Of a stretch of DNA of 64,000 nt, positions 935-21,877 are shown piece by piece. A program made the translations under genes and the position numbers. Position 1 is the first letter of the stretch, and each line of letters begins with the position of its first letter. Source of the stretch: Gammaproteobacteria bacterium. Lineage in GTDB: Bacteria > Pseudomonadota > Gammaproteobacteria > UBA4575. The stretch covers positions 285,231 to 349,230 of the forward strand of contig OZ242174.1 in the NCBI GenBank assembly GCA_965205685.1, written 5' to 3'. The notes beneath the pieces are model-generated. The model was given only the letters and a program-made list of their open reading frames with translations. It searched no databases and was not told the origin of the DNA.

Positions 935-1234
935 TATGCCTGCTGCCTCTTCCTTGATTTCATCCATCTCATTTGAGGTGGAGAATGTATCGGATTCACA
1001 GTCAAAATGCACCTGTCTCAATTCATGCAGCGCGTCCCCCACATCCCCATCTGGAAAGAGCCTTGGGCAGTCATCCTTGTAAATTTGAAGTAACACTTCA
1101 ATTTTGCAAGGTTACAGGCGCTGTGCATGCATGGGCCCCACAGGGACTGCAATGCGATACCCCAGCTGGTTTCGCTGCCGCATGGACAGGGACTGGCTCC
1201 CCAGTCACGGGTTTGGAAGGGCTTTCGATGGGGG

Positions 1235-2615: not shown

Positions 2616-2813
2616 CTAAACTGCAAGGGGTGTTGCCAAAATACTAGCCATCCTCACACCCTGGATCAAGTTTTCCACCGTACCGATTTCTAGGACTTCC
2701 TCTTCTTTCCCATGCATCATCACGATCACTGTCAGCTCACGGTTTTGTACATGCAAGGGAAGCTGTGCAAATTCTGGTTGTATGGTGTCAAGTGCTGAAC
2801 GATACCAGTCCAT
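2616..2813 (-). CDS. small hypothetical ORF (65 aa) in a lower-GC spacer
   Basis: Only the ORF track and local drop in GC support this; no recognisable similarity. Confidence 0.15.
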   Translation of the reverse strand: MDWYRSALDTIQPEFAQLPLHVQNRELTVIVMMHGKEEEVLEIGTVENLIQGVRMASILATPLAV

Positions 2814-2828: not shown

Positions 2829-4058
2829 TTAGAAGCTGAAGATGAGTTCCGCACCCGCGAAACTGTCGCGCCTGCCATCGTAGGTCAGGTCCTTGCGGTC
2901 TGAGCCCAAGTTGGCGAAGGTCTCAAGTCGCATCGACCAGCTGCCCGCGAGGCGGCGTTTGAATTCCAGGTTCAGGGTACGCGTGTTGTAGCGAAGATCG
3001 GCAAGCAGGCCAGCGATAAGCTCCGTGCCCTGCACGTCGTTGAAGGCGAGAAAGCCGGTGAGGTACATATCGTTTTGCCAGGCGCTGGTGGCCCGGCTGC
3101 CGCGTTCATCGTAGAGCCACTCGCCCAGCAGGGTCAGGTCGTACGGGGAATCAAAGAGCGCATAGAGCGTGCGCTCCACGCCAACGATGAAGGCACCGTA
3201 ATCTTCCCCCTCACCGAGCAGGTTTTGCGCGCCGTGCCGGCGGATGGCTTCCAGCTTGTACAGCACAGGCTCGGTGGTGAGCTGCGCTTCGAGCCCGAAC
3301 TGGCGGATCTGCTCGTAGAACGGCAGTAAGGGAGCACCCATGCCCGGTATGCTCCCGGCATCCGGATCCACCACGAACCGGGGTTCGCGGTTGGTGCCGG
3401 AAAACGCGCTCAGCGCGATGTCGAGCACGCCCACGGCGTGGCTGTAGCGAAACGCGACATCGACGTGGCGCTCCTCGGCGCCGCTCTCGTAGGCGGCATC
3501 GTCCTCGATCAGGCGGCCTGCACGCAGCCGCCCGGAACGCCCCGGAAAGGTCTGCCTGCGGTGGTAGGGCAGTACGAAGGTCTCGGCCAGGCCCCAGTCC
3601 CCGGAGACCGCCAGGTGAAGCATCGGCTGCCCCAGCTTGGGCCGGTCGCGCGGGTGCTCGACGAGGTCGATCTGGTTGACGATGTCGACCAGGTTGTGCA
3701 CCTCTGCCACGCCCCAGAAAACGCGGTCCACGCCCGCTCGCAGCTGCCAGGAATGCCCGCCCCACTCGCCGTACCTCAGCAGGTAGGCCTCGCGCACATC
3801 CGCGTGCGTGCGCCTGGAATCGGCGGTATCAAAGCGGTACAGCGGGGTGAAGGTGAAGCTGGTGGTGGGAGTGAGTTCACCGTGCAGCGTCGGCTCGAGC
3901 ACCCAGCCCACGGTGGACGAGCGCTGCCCCGCATGCGCGGGCGACTCCGGGTAGCCGCGGGTCTGCAGGCTGAGATCACCCGAGAGATCCAGCGCCCGAG
4001 CCTCGATGCCCGCACCGGCCAGGAACACGAGGGACGCTATGGCGCCAGAGAATCGCAT
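2829..4058 (-). CDS. outer-membrane beta-barrel protein (DUF1302-like partner of RND exporters)
   Basis: Signal peptide MRFSGAIASLVFLAGAGIEARA. The C-terminus ends with an aromatic residue (…ELIFSF), typical of OM barrels. The start overlaps the stop of the upstream LolA-like gene. Confidence 0.55.
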   Translation of the reverse strand: MRFSGAIASLVFLAGAGIEARALDLSGDLSLQTRGYPESPAHAGQRSSTVGWVLEPTLHGELTPTTSFTFTPLYRFDTADSRRTHADVREAYLLRYGEWGGHSWQLRAGVDRVFWGVAEVHNLVDIVNQIDLVEHPRDRPKLGQPMLHLAVSGDWGLAETFVLPYHRRQTFPGRSGRLRAGRLIEDDAAYESGAEERHVDVAFRYSHAVGVLDIALSAFSGTNREPRFVVDPDAGSIPGMGAPLLPFYEQIRQFGLEAQLTTEPVLYKLEAIRRHGAQNLLGEGEDYGAFIVGVERTLYALFDSPYDLTLLGEWLYDERGSRATSAWQNDMYLTGFLAFNDVQGTELIAGLLADLRYNTRTLNLEFKRRLAGSWSMRLETFANLGSDRKDLTYDGRRDSFAGAELIFSF

Positions 4059-4924
4059 CAGCGCACGCGTCGCAGTGCCAGTTTGTTGAATTCGCTGTCG
4101 TCGAGGTTGGTGCGAAACCTGAAGTCGGTCCAGTGCAGCACCGTGCTGGCCTTGGTCAGGTGGTTCACCATGGTCTGTTCCCCGGCCCGCCAGAACTGGT
4201 CCAGGTATTGCCGGTAGTTCGCAAACGTGAGTGTCTTCAGGTGCGAGTCCTTGCGGTCGTACAGTTCCATCTTCCAGACCCGAAGCTCACCGGTGTCCTG
4301 CCAGACGATCTTGCGGCTGTATCCGGAATTCTTGTCCAGCGGCACCTGCTCGGTCACCGTACAGCTGAGCACGCCACAGGACTCGTCGCGAAGGTACTTG
4401 TAGGTGTATTCCTCCACTTCCGGTGTGCTCATGTCCTCGTAGGAGAACTCGCTGCCCATGAAGGACCCGGAACGCTTCGAGGCGTTGATGCGCTTCACCC
4501 GCTTCAGGGCCGGCAGGTACAGCCACTGGTCGTCCTGGGTGTTGATGTGGGCATGGGTCAGCAAGGCGGTGCCCTGCACGTCGCGCGGCTGGTCGAACAC
4601 GAACAGGCTCTTGTCCCCGTCGCCTGCCACCTCCAGCACCTTGAAGCGCATCTGGCGGATGCTCTCGCGCCCGTACCGATCGCGCAGCACCATCGTCATG
4701 CCCGCAGTGAAATCCCCGAAGCCGTCGTTGCGGGCCTCGGCCTCCAGCGCGATCCTCAGCCCCTTCTCCTGCGCCGTCTCCGCCTGGACCGGTGCCTGCG
4801 CGAGGCCCAGGACCGCGAGGACCAGGGCCAGGGTCCCGAGCCATCCCTTGCGGGGGCGTAGGAAAGCCTTCGTCGGGTCTTTTGGACCCCATCGGTTTCG
4901 GGCGGTTTCGTGATCAGGAAACAT
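4058..4924 (-). CDS. LolA-like outer-membrane lipoprotein-sorting family protein
   Basis: The signal peptide WLGTLALVLAVLGLAQAPVQA is followed by motifs typical of the LolA-like family that accompanies COG1033 RND exporters. The start was chosen at an internal Met (ORF extends to 5038) and is uncertain. Confidence 0.55.
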   Translation of the reverse strand: MFPDHETARNRWGPKDPTKAFLRPRKGWLGTLALVLAVLGLAQAPVQAETAQEKGLRIALEAEARNDGFGDFTAGMTMVLRDRYGRESIRQMRFKVLEVAGDGDKSLFVFDQPRDVQGTALLTHAHINTQDDQWLYLPALKRVKRINASKRSGSFMGSEFSYEDMSTPEVEEYTYKYLRDESCGVLSCTVTEQVPLDKNSGYSRKIVWQDTGELRVWKMELYDRKDSHLKTLTFANYRQYLDQFWRAGEQTMVNHLTKASTVLHWTDFRFRTNLDDSEFNKLALRRVR

Positions 4925-5140
4925 CTGGACAGGCGTGTGATGGACGTGTGACATTGTACCTTGAGTGCCCGGAACAGGTGAAGTCACCGGCGTGCGAAGC
5001 CCCGGGCCGGGGCGGCACCATGGCGAGAATTTAGTCATTCCCGGTCGAGATTGCTTATAATCGCTAAAAGTTTCAACACCATCCTGAACGGGATGGCCCC
5101 GGGACTTTGCTTGGTCCAGGTGAGGAGGCTGCTCTAGGTC

Positions 5141-5692
5141 GTGTTCAACAATCCATTCGAGTCATTTCACAACATGGTCGCCGAGGCCAAGGAAGAACGT
5201 GAGCAGCTGGACCGGCTGCTGACCATTTCTACCCCCAATGAGCGTGCGCTGGTGGCTGCCATCGCCGGGGTGCTGGTGGTGCTTTTGGTCTGGCTGGTGT
5301 TTGGCAGCGTGGCCCGCAGCCTGACGTTCGACGGGGTCCTGGCCGGTCCCGGTGAGAGCACGCTGACAGGCGAGCACAACCTGCAGGCGATGGTGTGGAT
5401 CAAGCGTGATGCCGCGGCACAGATCGAGGCCGGTCAGCCTGCGAGGATCGAGTTCAGTGGAGCCGACGGGCACCTCCACACCCTGGCAGGGGAAGTGACA
5501 GGCATTTCCGCACTGCCCCTGACCGAGTTCCTGGCGATGTTCGAGGGCCGTGCACCGCTGTCGGTGCACCGCCTGCACATCCGACTCGATGAACGCCCCG
5601 AGGGCGCTGTGCCTGCACGCAAGGAATGTGAAGTCACCATCGAAGTGGGCAGACAGTCGCCGATCGCACGCCTTCGGATGAGGCCCTCCTGA
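5141..5692 (+). CDS. truncated HlyD-like membrane-fusion protein of an NHLP-type bacteriocin export system
   Basis: A single TM segment (LVAAIAGVLVVLLVWLVF) is followed by a beta-barrel/lipoyl-like segment. It is only 183 aa and lacks the alpha-helical hairpin. Its stop lies 1 nt before the C39 ABC exporter start. Confidence 0.5.
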   Translation: MFNNPFESFHNMVAEAKEEREQLDRLLTISTPNERALVAAIAGVLVVLLVWLVFGSVARSLTFDGVLAGPGESTLTGEHNLQAMVWIKRDAAAQIEAGQPARIEFSGADGHLHTLAGEVTGISALPLTEFLAMFEGRAPLSVHRLHIRLDERPEGAVPARKECEVTIEVGRQSPIARLRMRPS

Positions 5693-5693
5693 G

Positions 5694-7904
5694 ATGGCAC
5701 CGAGTGCCTCCAAGGGCACCGGGGATCAGGCCACCTCGGATTCCGTCAAGCACCGGATCGCCACACCCGTGATGCTGCAGATGCACGCCTCCGAATGCGG
5801 GGCGGCGAGCCTCGGCAGCGTACTGGGCTTTTTCGGGCGCTGGGTGCCGCTGACCGAGTTGCGCGAGAAGTGCGAGGTCAGCCGCGACGGCAGCAGCGCG
5901 GCGAGCCTGCTGCGGGCCTCCCGCCACTACGGGCTGGAATGCAGTGGCCTGAGCGTACGTTCCGAGTCGCTGAAAAAACTGGAGTTGCCGCTGATCCTGT
6001 TCTGGCAGTTCAGTCATTTCCTGGTCCTCGAAGGCTTCGACGAGCGGTACTTCTACCTCAACGACCCGTCCACCGGGCGGCGCAAGGTCAGCGCCGAGGA
6101 GTTCGAAAAGAGCTACAGCGGGATCGCCTTGCGCTTCAAGCGCGGCAAGGATTTCAAGGCCGGCGGCGAGGCTCCCGGCCTGTTCACACAACTTGGCACC
6201 CTGCTGGCCGGCTCCTGGACGGTGCTTGCCGGAGTGGCGGCCACCGCCCTCATGGTGACGTTGCTGGCCCTGGTCGTGCCCGCGGTGCTCAGCATCTTCG
6301 TTGACGACGTGCTGGAAAACCACGGCGCCTGGGGCGGGCTGGTGGGCGCGCTGCTGGGTGCCGGGGTGCTGGTCTACCTGCTTTCCCTGCTCAAGCACCG
6401 GTTTTTGAAGCGACTGGCGGTGCGGATTTCGGTGATTGGATACAACCGCAACCTGACGCGCCTGCTGCGCCTGCCAGTGGAATTTTTCGAGCACCGCCTG
6501 ACCGGTGACCTGACCGACCGGGTGTCCTCCATCGACCGCATCGCGAAAAATCTCACTGACCAGTTCCTGGTGCTGCTCGTCGACATGGTCATGAGCGCGG
6601 TGCTGCTGATCGTGATGCTGGTGTACGAACCCCTGCTGAGCCTGATCGTGGTGTTACTCGCCGTCCTTCACGGCATGGTCGTGCACTTTTTGAATTCGCT
6701 TCGCACGGTGCGCATCCAGTCGATGCGCCGCGAACAGGGATTGCTGATCGGCGTGGGCATGCAGATGCTGAGCCATGCGGACACCCTTCGCATGACCGGT
6801 GCGGACGACCGGTTCTTCTCGCGCTGGAGCGGCCAGCAGGCGCGCGAACTGGAGGCGCGCCAGCACTACTTTGAACTCAGCGCATTCAACACCGCGCTGC
6901 CGGGGCTGGTGGCCATTCTCCGGGCCGCCGTGATCCTCGGCATCGGCGGAAGCCTGGTGCTGGCCGGGGAAATGAGCCTGGGTGCCTTGGTCGGGTTCTA
7001 CATCCTGGCGGAGATGTTCCTGTCGCCCATCGGGCAGTTCCTGGAGTTCGCCGACAGGCGCCAGGCCCTGGAGACCGACCTGCAGCGACTCGAGGACATC
7101 TCGCGGGCCGCTGAAGATCCCGTGATCCGCCGCCGAAGCCCGGAATCGGAGTCCATCCCGACGTTCAACGGGCGCCTGCAGCTGACCGGGCAACTCGAAC
7201 TGCGCGACGTCACCTTCGGATTCAACAGGAGCCGCCCGCCCCTGCTCAAGGAGTTCAACCTGACGATCCAGTCCGGGCAGCGCGTTGCCGTGGTGGGCCC
7301 GAGCGGTTCCGGCAAGTCGACCCTGGCGCGCCTGGTGTCCGGGGTGTACCAGCCCTGGTCCGGCGAAATCCTGTTCGACGGGCACCTGCGCGATGAGATC
7401 CCGGAGGAAGTCCTGCGCCAGTCCATCTCCATGGTGGACCAGGAGGTCGTGCTGTTTTCCGCGTCGCTGCGCGACAATATCACCTTGTGGAATTCGGCCA
7501 TCCCGGATGAGGCCATCTTCGCCGCCACGCGCGATGCCTGGATCCACGACGAGATCCTGCTTCGCCCGCAAGGCTATGCGACCGAGGTCGAGGAAGGTGG
7601 GGTAAACTTCAGCGGCGGCCAGCGCCAGCGCCTGGAAATCGCCCGCGCGCTGGTCGGCAACCCGACCGTACTCATCCTGGACGAGGCCACCAGCGCGCTC
7701 GATGCGGCGACCGAGGAGCATGTCGATGATGCCTTGCGCCGTCGCGGCGTGACCTGCCTGATCGTGGCACACCGCCTGAGCACGGTGCGCGACTGCGACG
7801 AAATCATCGTGCTCGATCAGGGGACCGTGGTGCAGCGCGGCACGCACGATGACCTGATTGCAGATCGCGATGGCACCTATTACAAGCTGGTCAAGTCGGG
7901 ATAA
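5694..7904 (+). CDS. NHLP/bacteriocin-family ABC exporter with N-terminal C39 peptidase domain
   Basis: C39 active-site context QMHASECGAASLGSV. Six TM helices. Walker [10 protein letters not shown], signature FSGGQRQRLEIAR, Walker B LILDEATSALD. Confidence 0.9.
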   Translation: MAPSASKGTGDQATSDSVKHRIATPVMLQMHASECGAASLGSVLGFFGRWVPLTELREKCEVSRDGSSAASLLRASRHYGLECSGLSVRSESLKKLELPLILFWQFSHFLVLEGFDERYFYLNDPSTGRRKVSAEEFEKSYSGIALRFKRGKDFKAGGEAPGLFTQLGTLLAGSWTVLAGVAATALMVTLLALVVPAVLSIFVDDVLENHGAWGGLVGALLGAGVLVYLLSLLKHRFLKRLAVRISVIGYNRNLTRLLRLPVEFFEHRLTGDLTDRVSSIDRIAKNLTDQFLVLLVDMVMSAVLLIVMLVYEPLLSLIVVLLAVLHGMVVHFLNSLRTVRIQSMRREQGLLIGVGMQMLSHADTLRMTGADDRFFSRWSGQQARELEARQHYFELSAFNTALPGLVAILRAAVILGIGGSLVLAGEMSLGALVGFYILAEMFLSPIGQFLEFADRRQALETDLQRLEDISRAAEDPVIRRRSPESESIPTFNGRLQLTGQLELRDVTFGFNRSRPPLLKEFNLTIQSGQRVAVVGPSGSGKSTLARLVSGVYQPWSGEILFDGHLRDEIPEEVLRQSISMVDQEVVLFSASLRDNITLWNSAIPDEAIFAATRDAWIHDEILLRPQGYATEVEEGGVNFSGGQRQRLEIARALVGNPTVLILDEATSALDAATEEHVDDALRRRGVTCLIVAHRLSTVRDCDEIIVLDQGTVVQRGTHDDLIADRDGTYYKLVKSG

Positions 7905-10846
7905 TGCAGGACACCCAGCCCGCCTACTCCTCGATCGCCGAACTCGCGGCCCGCCTGGGGACTGACGTGCCCTGTGCCGGTAACCTGCCGGTGAAGCTCG
8001 ACGATGCGGACAGCATCTGGCTCATTGACCGGGGCACCGTCAACCTGTTTTTAGTCGAGCTCAAGGACGGTGTGGAGCAGTCGTCTCCACAGCATCTGCT
8101 GCGCCGCGAGGCGGGCTGGTTCCTGCCAGGGGTTCCTGCGCGCGAACCTGATGCGCAGGATGGAACCACGCTGAGCCTGGTAGCCAAGGGTCTGCCCTGC
8201 ACCTTGCTGAAACGCTTGCCGGTCTCCCTGCTGTCCAAGGTGCACCCGGGCGAGCTTGCCGAGCAGACCGATGCCTGGCTGAGCGAGATGACCGACACGC
8301 TGTCGCGCTTCGCCACGCCCGCACCGCGCCCGACGGCCCTGGCCGAGGCCGGTGCGATACAGGTCCCGGCGCATAGCACGCTGTCGGTGCAGCGCAAGGT
8401 GGTGTGGGCGTCCCCGCACCCGGGCAGTGCGCTGCTGTTCATGGACATCGTCGATCCGATGGAGTTGGCCGAGGCCAGCGGCGCAGGGGATGCGGTTCTG
8501 CCGCTGACCCGCACCAGCTGGCTGACCACGCTGGAGGAGACCACGCTGGAGTGCGTGAGCACGCAAACCCTGGCCGAGCAGGGCCGCCTGCAGGGCGCAC
8601 TGTCGTATTTTCATGAGGTCGCCTTCACCCTGGAGCGCCTGAACCGCCGCCTAGCCGTGGTCGACGATGTGAACCTCGAACGTGCCCGCACAACGAGCCG
8701 GCGCACGGCCGAGAAGGCGGCCCGCGCGCGCCTGTTCAACCTCTACGACCAGCCGGTGGGCCGCTATGCCGGCCTTGAGGACACCACCTTGGTCGATGCC
8801 CTGCAGGTCATTGGCCGCCACGAGGGTATCGATTTTAAGATTCCCGTACGTTCCGGGCCTTCGCAGGCTTCGCTCGGCTTGGTCGACGTGCTGGATGCCT
8901 CCGGAGTGCGCGCAAGGCGCGTGCGGCTCAAGGACGAGGACCGGTGGTGGCGCACCGACAGCCACGCGATGCTGGGATTTCGTGCCAAGGACGGCCAGCC
9001 CGTGGCCCTGCTGCCGGGTGTGTTCGGCGGCTACCGCGAAATCGACCCGGTCAGCAAGCGCACGGTTCGCGTCAGCCAGGAACGCGCAGATGCACTGCGT
9101 GAGGACGCGTGGATGTTCTACCGCCCCTTGCCTGCAGACGAGGTGAAACCGGCGGACCTGCTGGGCCTGGCTCTGCAGGGATCGGGACCGGACATTGCCC
9201 GGCTGGTGCTCGCAGGACTTCCCTACGGGCTGATCCAGTTGTTGCCGGCCATCGCGCTTGGCTTTGTCGCCCATGAAATCGCCGCAGGCGGCACTGCCGG
9301 TGCGATCTACGCCGTGGCCTGGGTGTTGGCCGGGTTCGGCCTTCTCGGGGCACTGCTGCACCTCGCGCAAAGTACGGCGATGATGCGTCTTGAGGGGCGC
9401 TCGGCCTCGCGCGCAGAAGCGGCCTTCTGGGACCGCCTCATGCGATTGCCGCCGGCCATCCTGCACCGCCATCCGTCAGGCGACCTGGCGATGTCGGGCA
9501 TGACCTTCCAGAACCTTCGAGACGGCCTGCAGGGAGTGGTCGCCGACAGCTTCCTGTCAGTCATCTTCCTGGCCCCGGTGTTTGCCGTCATCTTCTTCTA
9601 CGATGCCGCCCTCGGCAGTCTCGCCCTGGCCTTCAGCCTGGGGTCGCTGCTCATTACAGGGATGCTCGGTGTCCTGCAGATTGCCCCGTACGGGCGCATG
9701 ATTCGTGCGTCACGGCGTGTCGCCGGGCGCCTGTTCCAGATCGTTGGCGGCTTTGCCAAGCTGCGCGTGGAAAATGCCGAAGGCTCCGCGTTTGCCATGT
9801 GGGCCGAGGACTACCGCGAGCAAAAACGCGCGGAACTCGATTTGAGCGTGCTGGAGGGGCATTCGCGGGCGTTTTCCGCAGCATTGCCGTTTCTCGCGGG
9901 AGCCTTCTTGCTGCTGGCCGCAGTGACCGTCGGCGAGCGCATCATGCCGGTCGGTGATTTTCTGGTCGTCTACCTGGTCTTCATCGCCTTCCAGAGCGCG
10001 ATCGCACGCCTTGGCGAGTCTCTGGGGACCGTTGCGGCCCTGTTGCCGGCGTTCAAGCAGATGCGCCCGCTGCTGGCTGCAGATCCAGAAACCGAGACCG
10101 AAGGCGAGCCGGTGGAATACCTGGGCGGGGACCTCCTGTTCGACCGCATCTCGTTTCGCTACGACCCGGACGGCCCGCTGATTCTCGACGATGTCACGAT
10201 CCACGCACGCGCAGGCGAGTTCATCGCCATCGCCGGCGAGTCCGGCACCGGCAAGAGCACCCTGTTTCGCCTCGCACTCGGCATCGACCGGCCCACGGCG
10301 GGCGCGGTGTACTACGACGGGCGCGATGTGCGCCACCTGAACCTGCGCCAGCTGCGCCGCAAGGTTGGTGCGGTGCCGCAAGCCGTGGGACTTCACCCCC
10401 TGGATATCTGGGACAACCTGGTCAGCCATCATGACGGGATCACCACCGAAGAGGTCTGGGAGGCGGTGCGAACCGCCGAAGTCGAGAAAGAGATCAAGGC
10501 CATGCCCATGGGCATGATGACCATGGTCGGCGCTAGCGGCTCGGTGCTGTCTGGTGGCGAGAGCCAGCGCGTCACCATCGCCCGCTCGGTGATCGGCAAG
10601 CCGCGGATCATGTTGTTCGACGAGGCGACCAACTGGCTGGATAACGAAAACCAGGCCCGGGTCATGGACAACCTGACCGACCTGACCTCTACCCGGCTGG
10701 TCATCGCCCACCGCCTGTCCACGCTCGAGCAGGCGGATCGCATCTACGTGCTGTCCGGCGGCAAGGTGGTGCAGCACGGCAGCTTCGAGGAACTCATGGA
10801 AGAGGACGGGGTGTTCAAGGAACTGGTCAAAAGGCAGATCGCCTGA
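7904..10846 (+). CDS. second ABC exporter of the NHLP bacteriocin system (long N-terminal extension, permease and ATPase)
   Basis: A ~430-aa N-terminal domain precedes the TM domain. Walker A GESGTGKST, signature LSGGESQRVTIAR, Walker B MLFDEATNWLD. ATG overlaps the preceding stop (TAATG). Confidence 0.85.
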   Translation: MQDTQPAYSSIAELAARLGTDVPCAGNLPVKLDDADSIWLIDRGTVNLFLVELKDGVEQSSPQHLLRREAGWFLPGVPAREPDAQDGTTLSLVAKGLPCTLLKRLPVSLLSKVHPGELAEQTDAWLSEMTDTLSRFATPAPRPTALAEAGAIQVPAHSTLSVQRKVVWASPHPGSALLFMDIVDPMELAEASGAGDAVLPLTRTSWLTTLEETTLECVSTQTLAEQGRLQGALSYFHEVAFTLERLNRRLAVVDDVNLERARTTSRRTAEKAARARLFNLYDQPVGRYAGLEDTTLVDALQVIGRHEGIDFKIPVRSGPSQASLGLVDVLDASGVRARRVRLKDEDRWWRTDSHAMLGFRAKDGQPVALLPGVFGGYREIDPVSKRTVRVSQERADALREDAWMFYRPLPADEVKPADLLGLALQGSGPDIARLVLAGLPYGLIQLLPAIALGFVAHEIAAGGTAGAIYAVAWVLAGFGLLGALLHLAQSTAMMRLEGRSASRAEAAFWDRLMRLPPAILHRHPSGDLAMSGMTFQNLRDGLQGVVADSFLSVIFLAPVFAVIFFYDAALGSLALAFSLGSLLITGMLGVLQIAPYGRMIRASRRVAGRLFQIVGGFAKLRVENAEGSAFAMWAEDYREQKRAELDLSVLEGHSRAFSAALPFLAGAFLLLAAVTVGERIMPVGDFLVVYLVFIAFQSAIARLGESLGTVAALLPAFKQMRPLLAADPETETEGEPVEYLGGDLLFDRISFRYDPDGPLILDDVTIHARAGEFIAIAGESGTGKSTLFRLALGIDRPTAGAVYYDGRDVRHLNLRQLRRKVGAVPQAVGLHPLDIWDNLVSHHDGITTEEVWEAVRTAEVEKEIKAMPMGMMTMVGASGSVLSGGESQRVTIARSVIGKPRIMLFDEATNWLDNENQARVMDNLTDLTSTRLVIAHRLSTLEQADRIYVLSGGKVVQHGSFEELMEEDGVFKELVKRQIA

Positions 10847-10900
10847 TCCGAACCCGAACGGTCCACTTCGACTCCACAGCAGGCTTGTGAAAACACTCCC

Positions 10901-12196
10901 ATGAACCCTCCCATCGATGGTGCAGGCCAGCTCATTTTGCGTGCGGGCCGGGACGAAGGCTTTCGACAACGCCTCATCGATAATCCCAGGCAGGCCATCG
11001 AGGAGGCCCTCGGCGTGAAGATCTCCGCAGACCAGCAGGTGTTCGTGCACGAGTCGAATGAAACCGAAGCCCACCTTGTGCTGCCGCCGGTGAGCACGCG
11101 CACGCCAGCCGAACGCGAGGCCGCGAGAACCGGCGTGGCCTCCCTGGAGTTTCTTCGCAAGACGCTGCACGACCCGGCCCCGCCGATGCGCACTCCCGCA
11201 CCGGCCCGGGCAGTGGACCCCGGGGCGGGCGCCGAGGACCTGGCGTCGGCCGCGCGCAACAGTATCGGTCGTGGCCTCGAATTCCTGCAATCCAGCATCA
11301 CCGATGACGGTGCCTGGCACTGCATTCGCTTCAACATTGCCGATCCCGAGGTGCCCCGGCATTTCGAGCGGCCTGCATTCGTGACGGCATTTTGCGTACT
11401 GGCCCTGCAAGGCTGCGGAGATGTGCGCGCGAAGGCCCTGTACGAGACGAGCCGGGCGTACCTGATGGACACCATGGAATATCCCGGCATGTGGCGCTAC
11501 TACCGCCACCTGCCCCAGGATCTGGACAGCACGACCCTGTGCTCGCTGATCCTTGGTTCGCATCCGTGGATCGCGCTCGGGCGAAACGTGGCAAAGATCC
11601 TGTCGAACCGCGATGCACAGGGCCGTTTCCTGACTTGGGTGCTGGGCGAGGACGAGCCCGATGTCGTGTCAAAATTTCGCATCGAGGCCGACCCGGTGGT
11701 GAATGCGAACGTCATCGCCTACCTCGGCGATCACCCGCAGACCCGTCCCGCGCAGCGCTGGCTCGAAGAGCTGGTACGCGAGGACCGCGTACAGGGCACC
11801 TCGAAATGGTATCCCGATACGATAGCGATCTACTACGCCATCACGCGCACAATGGTGCGCGCTCGCCCCGCGCTCGAGTCGCTTCGCCCGATCCTGGCAG
11901 ACCGTATCCTCGGTCTTCGCGACCCCGAGGGCGGGTTTGGCAACCTACTGCAAAGCGCCCAGGCAGTCTCGGCGCTCGACAACGTGCAGTGCCTGGGCCG
12001 TATCGACATGAAAGTCGAGCTGGCCCGCCTGCTGGGTGCACAGCACGAGGACGGAAGCTGGCCGGAGCTGCTCGCTTTCGGCGACCAGACGCTCAAGTGG
12101 GGGGTGGTCGGTCAGTTCGGACACGCCTCGGAGCCCGTGACCACGGCCTTCTGCATCGAGGCGCTGGGACGCCTCGCACAAGCGCTGAGCAGCTGA
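10901..12196 (+). CDS. NHLP leader-peptide domain fused to a prenyltransferase/squalene-cyclase-repeat (alpha/alpha-toroid) domain
   Basis: Residues ~18-63 (GFRQRLIDNPRQAIEEALGVKISADQQVFVHESNETEAHLVLPP) are paralogous to the leader of the precursor at 13475..13726. After a Pro/Ala-rich linker there are QW-type repeats (RGLEFLQSSITDDGAWH, DAQGRF, DPEGGFGN, HEDGSWP). Confidence 0.7.
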   Translation: MNPPIDGAGQLILRAGRDEGFRQRLIDNPRQAIEEALGVKISADQQVFVHESNETEAHLVLPPVSTRTPAEREAARTGVASLEFLRKTLHDPAPPMRTPAPARAVDPGAGAEDLASAARNSIGRGLEFLQSSITDDGAWHCIRFNIADPEVPRHFERPAFVTAFCVLALQGCGDVRAKALYETSRAYLMDTMEYPGMWRYYRHLPQDLDSTTLCSLILGSHPWIALGRNVAKILSNRDAQGRFLTWVLGEDEPDVVSKFRIEADPVVNANVIAYLGDHPQTRPAQRWLEELVREDRVQGTSKWYPDTIAIYYAITRTMVRARPALESLRPILADRILGLRDPEGGFGNLLQSAQAVSALDNVQCLGRIDMKVELARLLGAQHEDGSWPELLAFGDQTLKWGVVGQFGHASEPVTTAFCIEALGRLAQALSS

Positions 12197-12207
12197 GGAA
12201 GTAAGGT

Positions 12208-13347
12208 ATGGCATCTGCCCCAGAGGACATCAGCATCGACGAGGCCATCCTGCTGACCCAGGAGCGCCTAGACGATGAAGGCGACAGCATGGCCGACTTG
12301 CTCGAGCACTTTCGCGAGCGAATCTCGCCGGTGCTGATCGGCGACTCCCAATGGACCCGAGTACTCGATTGCGTCGCCAAGCTTCCGATCACCATGGCGG
12401 CCCTTCCCTTCGGTTTCGAACTGCCCCTGCATGAGACAGCACCGCTGGCGGATTTTGGCGCCTCGCTGGCTGCCGGCACGCGATCGGCCGAACCATTCCT
12501 TGCCCGTGCGAAGGCGGACCCCGGCGATGCACTGGCGTGCGCGATCGCCCGCCTGTTCCGCCAGATGGAGGCCGAGCCCTCGCCGCTTCGCGAGGTGGTC
12601 GGGCGAAAGCTCATGCTCGAATATGACATCGGTTCGGCCGGGCCGGGCAAGCCGCCCTTCCCTGGCATGTTTTTGCGCCCCGGCGAGCGCCCGATACTCG
12701 GGGCCTGCGAGCAGCACGACGAGGTTGCCCTGGTGGCGGATGCGCTGGTGTCCTGTCTTGGCTGGTCGATGGATGAGGCCCATCGCGGGCACATTGAACG
12801 CAGCTACCGGATGCAGCCCGAGGATACGCGCATGGACTCGTTCGGTGTGTTTCCCTCACGCTCGCAAGCCATACGCCTGGCGGTCATGGGCTTTCGCTCG
12901 AGCGCACAGCTTGGCGAGTATCTTGAGAACACCGGCTGGCCCGGGGACATTGCAGCCGTCGATGCGGTGCTCAAGCGATTCGCTGAGCGCGCGGACATCG
13001 TTCGCACCGGCATCAATATCGACGTCCAGGAGCAGGGCCTGGGTCCGACGCTGGGCCTGACGCTGATCGTCAAGCAGCGCTATACGAAAGATTCCCGCTA
13101 CTGGCTCGATGGCCTGACCGACTGGGAGCCGTTCCTTGAGGCGCTGGGCCAGGAGGCGCTGGTGGACCGGGACAAGCTGGCCGAGCTGGCCACGTGGGTG
13201 AGCAAGCCGACGACGCTGTTTGCGAAGTCCGGGCGCTTTGTGCTGCTGCGTGGCATCCACCACATCAAGCTGGTGATCTCCGAGAATGAACTGCGAAAAG
13301 CCAAGGCCTACGTGTTCATGGTGCTGTCCGGTGCGGTCAGTTTCTGA
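12208..13347 (+). CDS. hypothetical protein, co-transcribed with the leader-toroid fusion
   Basis: Clean 379-aa ORF, 11 nt after the upstream stop. No recognisable family. Confidence 0.45.
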   Translation: MASAPEDISIDEAILLTQERLDDEGDSMADLLEHFRERISPVLIGDSQWTRVLDCVAKLPITMAALPFGFELPLHETAPLADFGASLAAGTRSAEPFLARAKADPGDALACAIARLFRQMEAEPSPLREVVGRKLMLEYDIGSAGPGKPPFPGMFLRPGERPILGACEQHDEVALVADALVSCLGWSMDEAHRGHIERSYRMQPEDTRMDSFGVFPSRSQAIRLAVMGFRSSAQLGEYLENTGWPGDIAAVDAVLKRFAERADIVRTGINIDVQEQGLGPTLGLTLIVKQRYTKDSRYWLDGLTDWEPFLEALGQEALVDRDKLAELATWVSKPTTLFAKSGRFVLLRGIHHIKLVISENELRKAKAYVFMVLSGAVSF

Positions 13348-13372
13348 ATTCGTCCCGGGTAAGCGGACGAAA

Positions 13373-13467
13373 CCCTCCGTCCCGGTGCGGGACGGAGGGT
13401 CAGTCTAGATAAAAGCAGATCGACGCAGGCGCGGATGGCCTGCGTCTGGACCGGCTAGTAGCCGGTC
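13373..13467. terminator. cluster of three stem-loops between convergent genes (bidirectional terminator region)
   Basis: CCCTCCGTCCC-ggtgc-GGGACGGAGGG, GACGCAGG-n9-CCTGCGTC and GACCGGCT-agt-AGCCGGTC. The last lies ~8 nt past the precursor stop. Confidence 0.45.
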
Positions 13468-13474
13468 ATCGGTG

Positions 13475-13726
13475 TTACCAGCAGCAGCAAAGCCCGGCGG
13501 AAATCGCTTCGAGCTGCTCTTCGCTGATGTTCGGGTCCGGTGGCAGGGCAAGATGCACCGTCTGCATGTCGCTCTCATGGACCACAACGTTCATCGACTC
13601 GGGCATGGTAATGCCCAACTCTGCGCTGATGGTAGATTTCGGGTCATCGAGAAGCTGTTGCCTGAATTCTGTGTCCAGGGCAGACTTCTCAACAATCTGC
13701 TTAAGCATGTCATCGCCGCTTCTCAT
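13475..13726 (-). CDS. NHLP-family RiPP precursor peptide, predicted core LCCCW
   Basis: Leader motif FRQQLLDDPKSTISAELGITMPESMNVVVHESDMQTVHLALPPDP. A double-glycine-type site QLEAISAG (L-7, I-4, AG-2/-1) is followed by the C-terminal LCCCW. AAGGAGG lies 6 nt before the ATG. Confidence 0.75.
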   Translation of the reverse strand: MRSGDDMLKQIVEKSALDTEFRQQLLDDPKSTISAELGITMPESMNVVVHESDMQTVHLALPPDPNISEEQLEAISAGLCCCW

Positions 13727-13891
13727 GGCAATCCTCCTTAGTAATACATCGAATACCGTGTTGTTGTTGGATTCATGCTAGCGCGTTCACCTGCACCACT
13801 CAAGATTTTTAAGTAGTTAGGGGCTTGATGGGTTTTTGCCCGATCACGGGAATCCGGTCAGGACAACGCAATCCGTTGCACGGCCGTGCGC

Positions 13892-14329
13892 CTACTTGAA
13901 CGTCTCGTCCCCCTCGAAGATGCCCTGCAGGCGGATCTTGCTCTTCTTGTTGGCCATTTCAGTGCGGATCCGCTGCTCCATGAACCATGCCGTTTTCTGG
14001 TTCAGGATCAGACTGCGGGCCAGCCGGTAGCTGGACAGGTTTTTCCCGGCATGGACGATCAGGCCGACCGCCAGAAACCATTTTTGCAGCGGGATGCGGG
14101 TCTTCTCGAACAGCGTGCCCGAAAGGACGTTGAAGCTGGACCTGCATCCATGGCAGTTCCAGCGCCCGACGCGACCCGAGTCTATCTTTCTGGCCACGCG
14201 GACACTTCCACAATGCGGGCAACGGGGCTGATCCCCCCAGCGGAGCCCTTCAAGGTGCCCAATGCAGGCCGCCTGGTCCGGGAAGCGGTGGAAGATCCGC
14301 AGGATGTCGATGGCTCGAGCTTTGGCCAT
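13892..14329 (-). mobile_element. IS1595-family transposase N-terminal fragment (remnant)
   Basis: Zinc-ribbon CPHCGS…CHGC and IS1595-type N-terminus. It is only 145 aa, the DDE domain is absent, and no inverted repeats were identified. Confidence 0.55.
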
Positions 14330-14439
14330 GGTAGCGAACAGTCTAGGTCAGCGAACCCTGAAAGTTAAGCCCCTGATGGCTTGGCCGCTGCAGTAAGGCG
14401 GTTCGGGTCTCCCGGCATTCGCCCCGACAAAAGGGCGGA

Positions 14440-16773
14440 TCAGGGTGAGGCCGCGGAGGACTTTCCGGGCATTCGGTCCACCAGCATCAACAGCGCCGGC
14501 AAGAGGGTCAGGTCGGCCACCAGCGCAAAGCCGATGATCAACGCGGTCAGCACGCCCACCTGCGCGGTGGGCACGAACGGCGAGAACACGAAGATCAGGA
14601 AGCCCGCGACCAGCACGAGCGTGGTGGTGAGCAGCGCGCGCCCAGCCGTATCGAAGGCATAATGAATGGCCTGCTCGGGCGCCTGGCCGTATTCGCGGCG
14701 CGCCCTCTGGTACTTGCTTAGAAAATGCACCGTGTCGTCGACGACGATGCCGACGGTCATGGCGACCACGACCGAGAGCGAAAGCCCCACCTGCCCGACC
14801 GTCAACCCCCAGACCCCGAAGCCCAGCGCCGCCGGCACCAGGTTGGGCACGATGCTGATCAGGCCCAGGCGAATCGACTGCAGGGCGATCAGCAGGATGG
14901 CGGAAATTGCCACCAGCACCAGCACGGTGCCAATCAGCATGGCGCGGATGTTGCGCTGTCCGATATAGGCGAACAGGGCCGCCGGCCCGGTGCTGTTGAT
15001 CTCGGTAATGTCCGATGCGTTCTCGGCCAGCCAGGCGTTGGCGTGCGAATTCAGCTCCAGCACCTCCCGCGAGGACAGCGTCTCGGCCGAGACCGAGACG
15101 CGCGTCGCCGACCTCGAGCGGTCGATCTGGTTGTTCATGTCCAGGCCCTGCGGCAGCGACAGCTCGTACAGCAGCAGGTACTGCGCCGCGAGCTCCTGGC
15201 TTTCCGGGAGCCGGTAGGCCGCGGGATCATCGCCATGCATGCTCATGTTGAGTTGCTGGAAGGTGTCTGTGATGACCGCGACGTGGCGCACCGGGGGCTG
15301 TTCACGGTACCACTCGGCAAACCGGGCGATCTCGGTCAGGAAATCCGGGTGGGTGGCCCCGCCTTCCTCGGGAGCGTGCAGCGAGTACTCCAGCAGGGTG
15401 TTGCCGCTCAGGTGCTCGTCCATGAAATCGGTGTCCTGGCGAAACTCCGTGCCCTCGTCGAAAAAGTGCACCAGCACGTCGCTGAGCTCGTTGCGGGGAA
15501 TGGCCGTGAGCATGACCGGAACGATCACCAGCCAGGTGACGAACAGCGCAGTCCTGTAGCGCAGCACGGTGTTGGCGAGGCGCTCGATGGTGACCGCACC
15601 CAGCTTTCGCTCTGGGCGCGCACGAAACGGCAACAGCGAGATCAGGGCCGGCAGGAAGGTCACCGAGAGCGTGAAGGAGGCGACGATGCCGATGGCGATG
15701 AAGTTGCCGAGATGACGGTAGGGCGGCACCTCGGAGAAATTCATGCTCAAAAACCCGAGCGCGGTGGTCAGGCTCGCCAGAAACACCGGGTGCAGGTTGT
15801 ATCTGAGCGACTCGACGATGGCCTCATTCTTGGAATCGCCCGCGCGAAGCCGCTGCTGCAGGGCCACCAGCAGGTGCACGCAGTTGGCCACGACGATCAT
15901 CAGCACGATGGTCGGAGCCGGCGAGATGGGCGGCGAGAACGGCAGGCCAAGCCACACGCCACCGCCAAGGGATACGAGGATGGAAAAGACGATCACCAGG
16001 CCGGTCGCGGCCACACCCGTCCAGCTGCGGACGAGCAGGCCGAGAATCACGGCCATGAGCACGAGGCTGGCCGGCAGGAAAATCTTCTGGCTGTCGACCG
16101 AGGCCTCGACAAAGGTCTGGCTGACCATGACCGTGCCGACGATGCGAAGGTCAATGCCCGGGAAGCGCTGCTCGCCCTCGCCAGCCACCTTGCGGGCGTA
16201 CCCGGTCACTTCTGCCACGGCCTCGAGCAGCCCCTCCTCCGGCGGCTCCAGGGTGACGTTGACGACACTGACATCGCCGCCGCGCCCGAGGATGCTGCCG
16301 GCGATCCTGGGGTCGGACAGCGCAATGGCCCGGATCTGCTTGCGAACCTCGGCATCGTCCAGTGTTTGCGGGTCGATGAGGTCGCGCACGTACAGGTCAT
16401 CGCCGTCGGCGGTGGTGTACTGGAAGTTGGCGAGCGAGTCCACGCGTCGCGAATAGGGCGTTCGCCAGGCGGCCTCGGTCAGCCAGACGGTGGCCGAAAG
16501 CGCGTTTTGCGAGGTGGCGTCACCGTCGTCGGGGACGATCAGGAACGCGAGGTTCTCGTTCTTGCCGTAGGTTTTCTCAAGCGCCTCCAGATCCAGCAGC
16601 TGCGGGTTGTCTCCATCGAAGAAGATGCGGTAGTTGGCGGAGAACTCAAATCGCGCGATGCCGCTTGCAGCGAGGGCCACCAGCACCAGCGAGGCGACAA
16701 TGATTGGCCAGCGCCAGGCGATCACCCACTCGCCAAAGCGCATCGCAAACGGTGGATGTCCGGGTGTATTCAC
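14440..16773 (-). CDS. RND-superfamily exporter (COG1033 / MMPL/HpnN-like)
   Basis: 777 aa with twelve predicted TM segments in two blocks separated by large periplasmic loops. The N-terminus MRFGEWVIAWRWPIIVASLVLVALAASG is typical of this family. Confidence 0.85.
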   Translation of the reverse strand: MNTPGHPPFAMRFGEWVIAWRWPIIVASLVLVALAASGIARFEFSANYRIFFDGDNPQLLDLEALEKTYGKNENLAFLIVPDDGDATSQNALSATVWLTEAAWRTPYSRRVDSLANFQYTTADGDDLYVRDLIDPQTLDDAEVRKQIRAIALSDPRIAGSILGRGGDVSVVNVTLEPPEEGLLEAVAEVTGYARKVAGEGEQRFPGIDLRIVGTVMVSQTFVEASVDSQKIFLPASLVLMAVILGLLVRSWTGVAATGLVIVFSILVSLGGGVWLGLPFSPPISPAPTIVLMIVVANCVHLLVALQQRLRAGDSKNEAIVESLRYNLHPVFLASLTTALGFLSMNFSEVPPYRHLGNFIAIGIVASFTLSVTFLPALISLLPFRARPERKLGAVTIERLANTVLRYRTALFVTWLVIVPVMLTAIPRNELSDVLVHFFDEGTEFRQDTDFMDEHLSGNTLLEYSLHAPEEGGATHPDFLTEIARFAEWYREQPPVRHVAVITDTFQQLNMSMHGDDPAAYRLPESQELAAQYLLLYELSLPQGLDMNNQIDRSRSATRVSVSAETLSSREVLELNSHANAWLAENASDITEINSTGPAALFAYIGQRNIRAMLIGTVLVLVAISAILLIALQSIRLGLISIVPNLVPAALGFGVWGLTVGQVGLSLSVVVAMTVGIVVDDTVHFLSKYQRARREYGQAPEQAIHYAFDTAGRALLTTTLVLVAGFLIFVFSPFVPTAQVGVLTALIIGFALVADLTLLPALLMLVDRMPGKSSAASP

Positions 16774-19184: not shown

Positions 19185-19294
19185 AGGCGCTGACCAGCGT
19201 GAAATGCGCCAGTCCGGCGCCTTGACATGCCAATCCCGATGCGGACAATGAATTTCAATGATGAATACATTCCAGCGCTTGGCTGGAGGTTGTT

Positions 19295-21763: not shown

Positions 21764-21877
21764 CACGCCTCATACGAGTTGAATAGCAAGCGCGAGCGCG
21801 CCTGATTTACAATTCCCCTCCACGGTGACCGCAGCCTTGCGGGGGATTACCGAGAGAACCCCCGGACCGGAACCCGT

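What the first reader, a model, noticed from the sequence alone, without database searches (positions are those of the whole stretch)
2829..16773. RND accessory pair (LolA-like and OM barrel) is separated from its RND pump by the inserted ABC exporter block, with an IS1595 remnant nearby
DUF1302-like barrel and LolA-like genes (2829-5038, minus) normally sit beside a COG1033 RND gene. Here ~9 kb of plus-strand NHLP export genes lie between them and the RND gene (14440-16773, minus). A truncated IS1595 transposase (13892-14329) sits between the RND gene and the precursor. This suggests the RiPP module was assembled by insertion into an RND locus and may have co-opted it.
Basis: inference. Interest (0 to 1): 0.55.

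Follow-up and report, generated by a model that had tools for sequence, protein, structure and literature searches.

The report
RND export trio inside sponge srp cluster
The region is one more copy of the known sponge-symbiont "srp" peptide gene cluster, in which an RND pump, a LolA-like carrier and an outer-membrane barrel are conserved but reshuffled members rather than a host pump locus recently split by an insertion.

Summary
The event it inferred is not supported. The window carries an srp-type proteusin cluster: an NHLP precursor ending LCCCW, a fused YcaO, a Trp halogenase and the NHLP-type ABC exporters. Among 70 species-level srp loci found with the LolA-like protein, and 22 metagenome loci found with the RND protein, the RND, LolA-like and barrel genes travel with the peptide genes in several different orders. 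The RND touches the pair in only one short contig. The window's order recurs at 80-91% RND identity in related small-genome Gammaproteobacteria. GC and GC3 are flat across the block. The premise does hold for the nearest relatives outside srp (RND 38-48% identity). Seven such loci read RND>LolA-like>barrel contiguously with no peptide genes, so an old co-option of that trio is plausible. The "IS1595 remnant" is truly the N-terminal half of a transposase. It lies between the RND gene and srpE, not at either edge of the ABC block. It keeps exactly 145 codons in several lineages with dN/dS 0.11-0.18, so it looks retained under selection. Inferred mechanism: the ABC pair, with only a 183-aa mini adaptor, delivers the hydrophobic core to the periplasm, and the trio carries it to or across the outer membrane.

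The parts
1235..2509 (-). SrpI-like flavin-dependent tryptophan halogenase, last gene of the LolA-like/barrel/halogenase string
   Evidence: PF04820 E 3e-43. A Lol>Bar>Hal or Lol>Hal string is present in 63 of 70 srp loci. SrpI brominates the C-terminal Trp of SrpE (PMC10858898).
2829..4058 (-). Outer-membrane beta-barrel of about 18 strands, weakly DUF1302-like, with a signal peptide
4058..5038 (-). Periplasmic LolA-like protein (probable true start at 4924); its stop overlaps the barrel start
   Evidence: PF17131 E 2e-58; PDB 3BK5 E 4e-84. Homologues align from residue ~36, and the L001 orthologue is called at 288 aa.
5141..5692 (+). 183-aa mini membrane-fusion (adaptor) protein: N-terminal helix, TM helix and one beta domain, with no alpha-hairpin
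5694..7904 (+). NHLP-type ABC exporter subunit 1 with a C39 peptidase domain (PCAT)
   Evidence: TIGR03796 857.7 bits, above the 853.3 cut-off; Peptidase_C39 E 3e-32.
7904..10846 (+). NHLP-type ABC exporter subunit 2 with a ~290-aa N-terminal extension
   Evidence: TIGR03797 656.7 bits, just under the 709.4 cut-off, matching residues 294-979.
10901..12196 (+). 431-aa protein: NHLP-leader-like N-terminus fused to a squalene-hopene-cyclase-like alpha/alpha-toroid domain
   Evidence: TIGR03793 E 1e-11; SQHop_cyclase_C E 1e-4; PDB 8paj E 3e-6. Present in 39 of 70 srp loci.
12208..13347 (+). 379-aa conserved srp protein of unknown family
   Evidence: No Pfam or NCBIfam hit. Present in 51 of 70 srp loci, usually convergent with srpE.
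13372..13446 (.). Terminator-like hairpins between the convergent units: a perfect 13-bp inverted repeat at 13372-13400 and a minus-strand hairpin at 13422-13446 after srpE
13475..13726 (-). srpE precursor: 83 aa, NHLP leader, core LCCCW after ...AISAG
   Evidence: Read from sequence; NHase_alpha E 1e-7. The same ...SAGLCCCW tail occurs in 64 precursor copies from related loci. The LCCCW core is stated in PMC10858898.
13892..14329 (-). 145-aa N-terminal half of an IS1595-family transposase (Zn ribbon plus the start of the DDE domain). It is flanked by an 8-bp inverted repeat, AGGGGCTT at 13819-13826 and AAGCCCCT at 14367-14374
   Evidence: The nearest representatives are ~290-300-aa transposases, 59-65% identical over their residues 2-137. 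The 145-codon ORF is intact in window, L001, L007, L009 and L002, with dN/dS 0.11-0.18; L092 also carries the ORF by tblastn. The inverted repeat is conserved in L001 and L009.
14440..16773 (-). HAE3/MMPL-type RND transporter, 11 nt downstream of the YcaO gene
   Evidence: MMPL E 4e-34, TIGR00921 E 2.5e-43. Every RND at 63% identity or more that was examined lies among srp genes.
16785..19184 (-). SrpC-like fused YcaO cyclodehydratase
   Evidence: PF02624 E 8e-94. SrpC makes three thiazolines in SrpE (PMC10858898, PMC10286304).
19295..21763 (+). 822-aa FA_desaturase + GlnE-like protein. The overlapping 861-aa minus-strand ORF is spurious
   Evidence: PF00487 E 1e-24, PF03710 E 2e-9. This strand is the one called in L001, L002 and L004.
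21878..24385 (+). S8 subtilase, linked to the cluster only in the window's own lineage
   Evidence: PF00082 E 1e-33. Seen only in L001, L002 and L092.

Best explanation
The interval lies within a complete srp-type (sponge-derived RiPP proteusin) gene cluster carried by a small-genome gammaproteobacterial sponge symbiont.

The HAE3 RND pump, the LolA-like periplasmic protein and the ~18-strand barrel are conserved cargo of this horizontally spread cluster. They most likely descend from a generic contiguous RND>LolA-like>barrel module for hydrophobic molecules. That module was recruited long ago and has since been shuffled among the peptide genes. In this lineage the RND gene rides in the YcaO-RND-(IS fragment)-srpE unit, and the LolA-like/barrel pair rides with the brominase.

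Proposed mechanism:
1. SrpE is cyclodehydrated and brominated (shown in the literature).
2. The C39-ABC1/ABC2 pair cuts after ...SAG and moves the very hydrophobic pentapeptide across the inner membrane (inferred). Its adaptor is only a 183-aa stub without the hairpin that normally reaches an outer-membrane duct.
3. The RND, LolA-like carrier and barrel then take the product from the inner membrane or periplasm to or through the outer membrane (inferred).

The IS1595 piece is a later, lineage-specific insertion upstream of srpE. It has been kept under purifying selection, possibly as a DNA-binding protein (inferred).
For: Identity as srp:
- Precursor core LCCCW, YcaO and Trp halogenase match the description in PMC10858898 and PMC10286304.
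- All 80 genome loci found with the LolA-like protein are metagenome-assembled genomes (MAGs) assigned to many taxa; several isolate and family names point to sponges.

Conserved membership of the trio:
- In 70 srp loci the LolA-like gene is followed by the barrel in 49 and directly by the halogenase in 19.
- In the 29 of these loci where an RND is within reach, its neighbours are ABC2/SrpE (15), Hal/s183 (5) or other srp genes, never Lol or Bar.
- All 22 metagenome loci with RND at 63% identity or more are srp loci.
- Seven RND-centred look-ups agree.
- Mantel r: RND-Bar 0.91, RND-ABC1 0.93, Lol-Bar 0.66, RND-Lol 0.35, all p 0.001.

No sign of a recent insertion:
- GC 0.63-0.66 and GC3 0.76-0.87 across Lol, Bar, the ABC genes and RND.

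Generic ancestor module:
- RND>Lol>Bar is contiguous without srp genes in 7 loci.

Hydrophobe-export analogy:
- AmeABCD (PMC6394551), and DUF1302/DUF1329/COG1033 cofitness that persists even when the genes are split (bioRxiv 10.1101/072470).
- Paralogous modules sit beside sterol-synthesis genes.

Mini adaptor.
IS fragment under selection.
Against: - No experiment links the trio to the peptide. Co-conservation shows shared selection, not the substrate.
- The barrel is absent next to the LolA-like gene in 19 of 70 loci. The RND was within 10 kb of it in only 29 of 70, so the parts may be dispensable or serve another role.
- RND-Lol distance correlation is weak (r 0.35). LolA-like paralogues 67-69% identical sit beside a different RND (36% identity) in sterol-gene loci, so the three parts may not have been recruited together.
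- The s183 model is only moderately confident (pLDDT 67).
- The original srp paper could not be read, so its view of these genes is unknown to me.
Confidence: 0.72

Rival explanations
1. One reading: a resident RND-LolA-like-barrel locus of this genome was split by a recent insertion of the NHLP export/peptide block. The IS1595 remnant is the scar of that event.
For: The generic trio is contiguous in outgroup loci. A transposase fragment is present.
Against: - The same order occurs in at least five other lineages at 80-91% RND identity.
- L011 and L019 share the order without the IS ORF.
- The IS ORF is not at either edge of the ABC block.
- There is no GC or GC3 step.
- The RND is tied to srp genes in every arrangement.
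- RND and ABC1 distances co-vary, r 0.93.
Confidence: 0.04
2. The trio is in the cluster for something other than exporting the peptide. One option is self-protection against re-entering product. Another is trafficking a lipid, for example one made or modified by the desaturase/GlnE protein and the cyclase-like N431, or sterol-like lipids from the host.
For: - HAE3 pumps with known substrates move lipids or hydrophobes: HpnN and AmeD (PMC6394551), BstA (PMC10942540).
- Paralogous Lol-Bar and RND-Lol modules sit next to a squalene epoxidase-cyclase fusion and an ERG24-type reductase in five loci.
- The cluster already has a dedicated ABC exporter.
- The barrel is missing next to the LolA-like gene in 19 of 70 loci.
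Against: - Tight co-directional linkage of Lol-Bar with the brominase, and of RND with srpE, in most loci.
- The ABC exporter's adaptor lacks an outer-membrane-reaching part, which leaves an outer-membrane step unassigned.
- No lipid-synthesis pathway is evident in the cluster.
Confidence: 0.2
3. The 145-aa IS1595 ORF is a neutral leftover with no function, and its conservation only reflects recent common ancestry.
For: It is confined to one clade. It lacks two of the three catalytic residues' region. L002 and L092 tolerate an extra ~1.9-kb insert between RND and this ORF.
Against: dS between copies reaches 0.77-0.97, yet there is no frameshift or premature stop, the length is identical at 145 codons, and dN/dS is 0.11-0.18 in all ten pairs. 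Its protein identity to the window (78-91%) is like that of the neighbouring RND (80-90%).
Confidence: 0.1

Closest known systems
srp (sponge-derived RiPP proteusin) gene clusters, Nguyen et al. J Am Chem Soc 2021 (doi 10.1021/jacs.1c03474); SrpE/SrpC/SrpI biochemistry in PMC10858898 and PMC10286304
   Same: 83-aa NHLP precursor with core LCCCW, a YcaO cyclodehydratase, a Trp brominase-type halogenase and two ABC transporter genes. Relatives are spread over many bacterial taxa in sponge microbiomes. The 252-bp precursor gene size matches bioRxiv 10.1101/2023.06.09.544420.
   Different: Nothing essential; this is another member. [quoted passage not shown] I found no treatment of the RND/LolA-like/barrel set, the mini adaptor or the IS1595-derived ORF, but the founding paper was not available to me.
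AmeABCD of Castellaniella defragrans and the DUF1302/DUF1329/COG4447/COG1033 cassette (PMC6394551; bioRxiv 10.1101/072470)
   Same: An HAE3-type RND, a LolA-superfamily periplasmic protein and an outer-membrane beta-barrel that occur together and are implicated in moving hydrophobic compounds outward. The cassette can be split in the genome and still act together (P. stutzeri cofitness).
   Different: The LolA-like protein here is the shorter PF17131 type (~290 aa against 451 aa). The barrel is 409 aa against ~600 aa and only marginally matches DUF1302. No COG4447/BNR protein is present. Generic order here is RND>Lol>Bar, whereas ameABC lie upstream of ameD. Here the module is embedded in a peptide cluster.
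NHLP/Nif11 bacteriocin export system (TIGR03794 HlyD, TIGR03796 ABC1, TIGR03797 ABC2; Haft et al. 2010, cited in PMC10286304)
   Same: ABC1 with a C39 peptidase scores above the equivalog cut-off, ABC2 scores close to it, and both lie next to an NHLP precursor.
   Different: The HlyD-type adaptor is replaced by a conserved 183-aa protein that keeps only the membrane anchor and one beta domain.
IS1595-family insertion sequences
   Same: The N-terminal Zn-ribbon and the first ~70 positions of the transposase domain are 59-65% identical to full-length ~290-300-aa transposases.
   Different: Truncated just after the first catalytic-motif region. There is no second half and no long terminal repeats. 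It is fixed at one site in a clade and under purifying selection.

Membership tests
srp proteusin cluster | NHLP-leader precursor with C-terminal core LCCCW | tested here: met
   Translation of 13475-13726(-) ends AISAGLCCCW. NHase_alpha hit E 1e-7. The core is quoted in PMC10858898.
srp proteusin cluster | YcaO cyclodehydratase (SrpC) in the cluster | tested here: met
   PF02624 E 8e-94 for 16785-19184(-).
srp proteusin cluster | Flavin-dependent Trp halogenase (SrpI) in the cluster | tested here: met
   PF04820 E 3e-43 for 1235-2509(-). Direct identity to the published SrpI was not measured because that sequence is not held.
srp proteusin cluster | Origin in marine sponge microbiomes, spread over many bacterial taxa | tested here: inconclusive
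   The 80 related loci are MAGs assigned to Gamma- and Alphaproteobacteria, Binatia, Thermodesulfobacteriota and others, and several carry sponge-related names such as Poriferihabitaceae. The window's own source is not stated.
AmeABCD-type HAE3 RND cassette | HAE3/COG1033 RND inner-membrane pump | tested here: met
   MMPL 118.6 bits, above cut-off. TIGR00921 E 2.5e-43 but below its subfamily cut-off.
AmeABCD-type HAE3 RND cassette | DUF1302 outer-membrane protein | tested here: inconclusive
   PF06980 15 bits against a cut-off of 23.2. Many homologues carry a precomputed PF06980 hit. The fold is an ~18-strand barrel.
AmeABCD-type HAE3 RND cassette | DUF1329 LolA-superfamily periplasmic protein | tested here: inconclusive
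   The best family is PF17131 (197 bits). PF07044 gives 34.6 bits over only 60 residues. It belongs to the LolA superfamily by PDB 3BK5, 4Z48 and 3BUU.
AmeABCD-type HAE3 RND cassette | COG4447/BNR (Ycf48-like) second periplasmic protein | tested here: not met
   No such domain in any gene from 1 to 24385.
AmeABCD-type HAE3 RND cassette | Genes contiguous in one cassette | tested here: not met
   The RND is 9.4 kb from the LolA-like gene and in another transcription unit. The genes are contiguous only in outgroup loci.
NHLP bacteriocin export system | ABC1 with C39 peptidase (TIGR03796) | tested here: met
   857.7 bits against a cut-off of 853.3.
NHLP bacteriocin export system | ABC2 (TIGR03797) | tested here: inconclusive
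   656.7 bits against a cut-off of 709.4, full-length match.
NHLP bacteriocin export system | HlyD-family secretion protein (TIGR03794, ~421 aa) | tested here: not met
   22.9 bits against a cut-off of 156.2. Only 52 residues match and the protein is 183 aa. The model has no alpha-hairpin.
IS1595 insertion sequence | Complete DDE transposase | tested here: not met
   Only positions 1-70 of 215 in NF033547 are matched. Full-length relatives are ~290-300 aa.
IS1595 insertion sequence | Terminal inverted repeats | tested here: inconclusive
   Only an 8-bp perfect inverted repeat flanks the ORF, though it is conserved in L001 and L009.

The most novel reading that the evidence does not exclude
A lipid-type envelope route (HAE3 RND, LolA-like carrier, 18-strand barrel) has been captured by a ribosomal-peptide cluster as its outer-membrane delivery leg, paired with an ABC exporter whose adaptor has shrunk to a stub. 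Its nearest paralogues in sponge symbionts serve sterol-synthesis loci. If so, this protein family would be a previously unrecognised system for placing very hydrophobic metabolites (sterols, thiazoline/bromo-Trp peptides) in or beyond the outer membrane. The truncated IS1595 protein would be a domesticated regulator of the highly expressed precursor gene.
Probability: 0.3. Interest if true: 0.6.

Novelty: new member of a known kind. Interest (0 to 1): 0.33.

Why it matters
The srp clusters are among the most widespread and most highly transcribed peptide clusters in sponge microbiomes. Their final product and role are still unknown (bioRxiv 10.1101/2023.06.09.544420). If an RND/LolA-like/barrel set really is a conserved part of the cluster, the product may be handled like a membrane lipid. 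That would tell chemists where to look for it (cell envelope or vesicles rather than supernatant) and which genes to include in heterologous expression. For genome annotation, the case shows that a split 'accessory pair' and a nearby transposase fragment need not mark a recent insertion.

Tried and rejected
It gives no support for separate origin and has little power, since the whole cluster is probably mobile.
- Exact-sequence look-up of the window's own RND protein: not on record.
- The founding srp paper (PMC8780398) is not held. Supplements of PMC10858898 give only a figure legend. I could not check how the authors labelled the RND, LolA-like and barrel genes.
- Profile search for LolA-like or barrel genes next to the most distant RND relatives (40-42% identity; L111-L116, L118-L120): none found. 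The contiguous trio is therefore a property of the 38-48% identity group only.
- L019 as a clean 'no-IS' comparator: its srpE is frameshifted, so L011 was added as a second case.
- A promoter scan gave counts no higher than shuffles and is used only as a weak hint for the LolA-like start.
- The 861-aa minus-strand ORF at 19181-21766 was rejected in favour of the plus-strand desaturase-like gene.
Full report
**1. What is in the sequence**

ORF listing and profile searches give this map.

| Coordinates | Strand | Gene |
|---|---|---|
| 1235-2509 | - | Trp halogenase |
| 2829-4058 | - | 409-aa protein with signal peptide (barrel) |
| 4058-5038 | - | LolA_like protein (PF17131, E 2e-58) |
| 5141-5692 | + | 183-aa protein, only residues 21-72 resemble the NHLP HlyD model |
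| 5694-7904 | + | C39-ABC exporter, TIGR03796 above cut-off |
| 7904-10846 | + | second ABC subunit, TIGR03797 |
| 10901-12196 | + | 431-aa protein, NHLP-leader-like start plus cyclase-like domain |
| 12208-13347 | + | 379-aa protein of no known family |
| 13475-13726 | - | 83-aa NHLP precursor ending AISAGLCCCW |
| 13892-14329 | - | 145-aa IS1595-type ORF |
| 14440-16773 | - | HAE3/MMPL RND pump |
| 16785-19184 | - | fused YcaO |
| 19295-21763 | + | desaturase/GlnE-like protein |
| 21878-24385 | + | S8 protease |

- The barrel has no significant Pfam match; DUF1302 reaches only E 0.013. Many of its homologues carry a precomputed DUF1302 hit.
- The LolA-like protein matches PDB 3BK5 at E 4e-84.
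- The barrel start overlaps the LolA-like stop at 4058.
- The RND start lies 11 nt after the YcaO stop.

**2. What the cluster is**

- The precursor core LCCCW, the YcaO and the halogenase are the signature of the srp clusters of sponge microbiomes. In these, SrpC turns the three Cys into thiazolines and SrpI brominates the C-terminal Trp (PMC10858898, PMC10286304).
- The 252-bp precursor gene and its spread across phyla are described in bioRxiv 10.1101/2023.06.09.544420, PMC9426513 and PMC11832590.
- A scan of one genome per species with the LolA-like protein returned 80 loci. All are metagenome-assembled genomes. They are assigned to Gamma- and Alphaproteobacteria, Binatia, Thermodesulfobacteriota, Poriferihabitaceae and others, at 55-92% protein identity.
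- The RND, barrel and 183-aa proteins each have hundreds of homologues at about 55-80% identity.

**3. Test of the insertion idea by synteny**

I ran tblastn with sixteen window proteins against all fetched loci.

In the 70 LolA-centred srp loci:
- The LolA-like gene is followed by the barrel in 49 and directly by the halogenase in 19.
- Its upstream neighbour is the divergent 183-aa/ABC operon in 28, or srpE in 30.
- Where an RND is within 10 kb (29 loci), it lies between ABC2 and srpE (15), between the halogenase and the 183-aa gene (5), or beside srpE. It is never next to the LolA-like or barrel gene.

In the 37 RND-centred metagenome loci:
- All 22 with RND at 63% identity or more are srp loci.
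- Only one short contig (L103) shows RND next to a barrel gene.

The window's own order:
- It recurs, with the IS-like ORF, in L001/L008 (90% RND identity), L007, L009, L002/L068 (81%) and L092.
- L011 and L019, from similar ~2-Mb Gammaproteobacteria, have the same order with RND directly followed by srpE. The L019 srpE is frameshifted.

Other evidence:
- GC (0.63-0.66) and GC3 (0.76-0.87) show no step between the pair, the ABC block and the RND.
- Pairwise protein distances co-vary across loci: RND-ABC1 r 0.93, RND-barrel 0.91, Lol-barrel 0.66, RND-Lol 0.35, all p 0.001.

The layout is therefore an inherited variant of a mobile cluster, not a local insertion into a host pump locus.

**4.

- The nearest relatives outside srp (RND 38-48% identity) in L079, L080, L109, L110, L117, L122 and L123 read RND>LolA-like>barrel. 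They are contiguous and co-directional, with no peptide genes.
- This fits published work. AmeABCD couples an HAE3 pump with a DUF1302 outer-membrane protein and a DUF1329 LolA-superfamily protein for monoterpene efflux (PMC6394551).
- The DUF1302/DUF1329/BNR/COG1033 genes are cofit even where the set is split into two places (bioRxiv 10.1101/072470).
- An ancient recruitment of such a trio into the peptide cluster is therefore plausible. Physical separation does not argue against joint action.

**5. The IS1595 fragment**

- The nearest representatives in a 1.8-billion-protein library are ~290-300-aa transposases. They are 59-65% identical over their residues 2-137, so the ORF is a true N-terminal half.
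- Five orthologous copies (window, L001, L007, L009, L002) all keep exactly 145 codons and the same stop. dS ranges from 0.32 to 0.97 and dN/dS from 0.11 to 0.18 in every pair.
- That is purifying selection after the truncation.
- The ORF is flanked by a conserved 8-bp inverted repeat, AGGGGCTT at 13819-13826 and AAGCCCCT at 14367-14374.
- It sits upstream of the conserved srpE leader region.
- It does not border the ABC block.

**6. How it most likely works**

Shown in the literature:
- Cyclodehydration and bromination of SrpE.

Inferred here:
- ABC1/ABC2 cleave after ...SAG and export the five-residue, very hydrophobic product.
- The usual HlyD-type adaptor is replaced by a protein that is 183 aa in nearly all of the 120 listed homologues.
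- That leaves the outer-membrane step to the RND, the LolA-like carrier and the barrel.

The rival is that the trio moves a lipid or protects the producer. Evidence for the rival:
- Paralogous Lol-barrel or RND-Lol modules lie beside a squalene epoxidase-cyclase fusion and an ERG24-type reductase in L069, L071 and L081-L083.
- Known sterol and hopanoid routes use HAE3-like pumps (PMC10942540, PMC6394551).

**7. Verdict**

- Observation: confirmed.
- Interpretation: partly supported. Co-option is likely; IS-linked insertion is not supported.
- The object is another member of a published cluster family.
- Three details are apparently undescribed: the conserved but reshuffled RND/LolA-like/barrel set, the stub adaptor and the selected transposase fragment.
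- Their novelty could not be checked, because the founding paper was unavailable.

Noticed in passing
L081:3828-12027; L082; L083; L069:2010-10879; L071:1202-10879: LolA-like paralogues outside srp (55-69% identical to the window's) lie next to a 1279-aa squalene epoxidase/oxidosqualene-cyclase fusion. In L081-L083 there is also an ERG24-type sterol reductase. In L081 the order is cyclase fusion > LolA-like > barrel. L069 is in the same genome (OZ241971.1) as srp locus L054. This suggests a sterol-trafficking role for this LolA-like/barrel family in sponge symbionts.
   Followed up: partly
window 10901-12196 (+): A 431-aa protein whose first ~65 residues look like an NHLP leader, fused to a squalene-hopene-cyclase-like alpha/alpha-toroid domain (PDB 8paj E 3e-6). 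It is present in 39 of 70 srp loci. Its function is unknown; it could be an enzyme carrying its own leader-like docking domain.
   Followed up: partly
window 13892-14329 (-), inverted repeats at 13819-13826 and 14367-14374: The truncated IS1595 transposase half is kept at exactly 145 codons with dN/dS 0.11-0.18 across five lineages, immediately upstream of the precursor gene. It is a candidate domesticated DNA-binding protein.
   Followed up: yes
window 5141-5692 (+): The adaptor of the NHLP ABC exporter is a conserved 183-aa stub (membrane anchor plus one MacA/EmrA-like beta domain) instead of the ~420-aa HlyD-type protein.
   Followed up: yes
L096-L108: A diverged srp sub-family: precursor core LCCCGI (no terminal Trp), RND 63-69% identical, srpE directly upstream of RND, often two tandem copies of the 183-aa gene, and no halogenase seen in the loci.
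   Followed up: partly
window 19181-21766: The long minus-strand ORF (861 aa) has no family hit. The real gene is the plus-strand 822-aa FA_desaturase + GlnE-like protein at 19295-21763, divergent from the YcaO gene and present in 33 of 70 srp loci.
   Followed up: yes
L002:12547-14186; L092: In the 81%-identity relatives, an amine-oxidase gene (479 aa, opposite strand) and a 48-aa ORF are inserted between the RND gene and the IS1595-like ORF. This intergenic spot has been hit more than once.
   Followed up: no
L019:1157-1430: The srpE copy in this 2.1-Mb gammaproteobacterial MAG is split into two frames. This is either a decaying precursor gene or an assembly error.
   Followed up: no
window 98-1096 (-) and 26226-29684 (-): The cluster is flanked by a weak TbpB-like lipoprotein gene, conserved next to the halogenase only in L008, L009 and L068. 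Beyond the S8 protease and an epimerase/3-beta-HSD-like gene, there is a 1152-aa Calx-beta autotransporter. These mark the host-lineage context rather than the mobile cluster.
   Followed up: partly
window 2616-2813 (-): A 65-aa ORF between the barrel and the halogenase is 95% conserved in L007 and 57% in L009. A terminator-like hairpin (2584-2603) follows it. It is unclear whether this is a real small gene.
   Followed up: no
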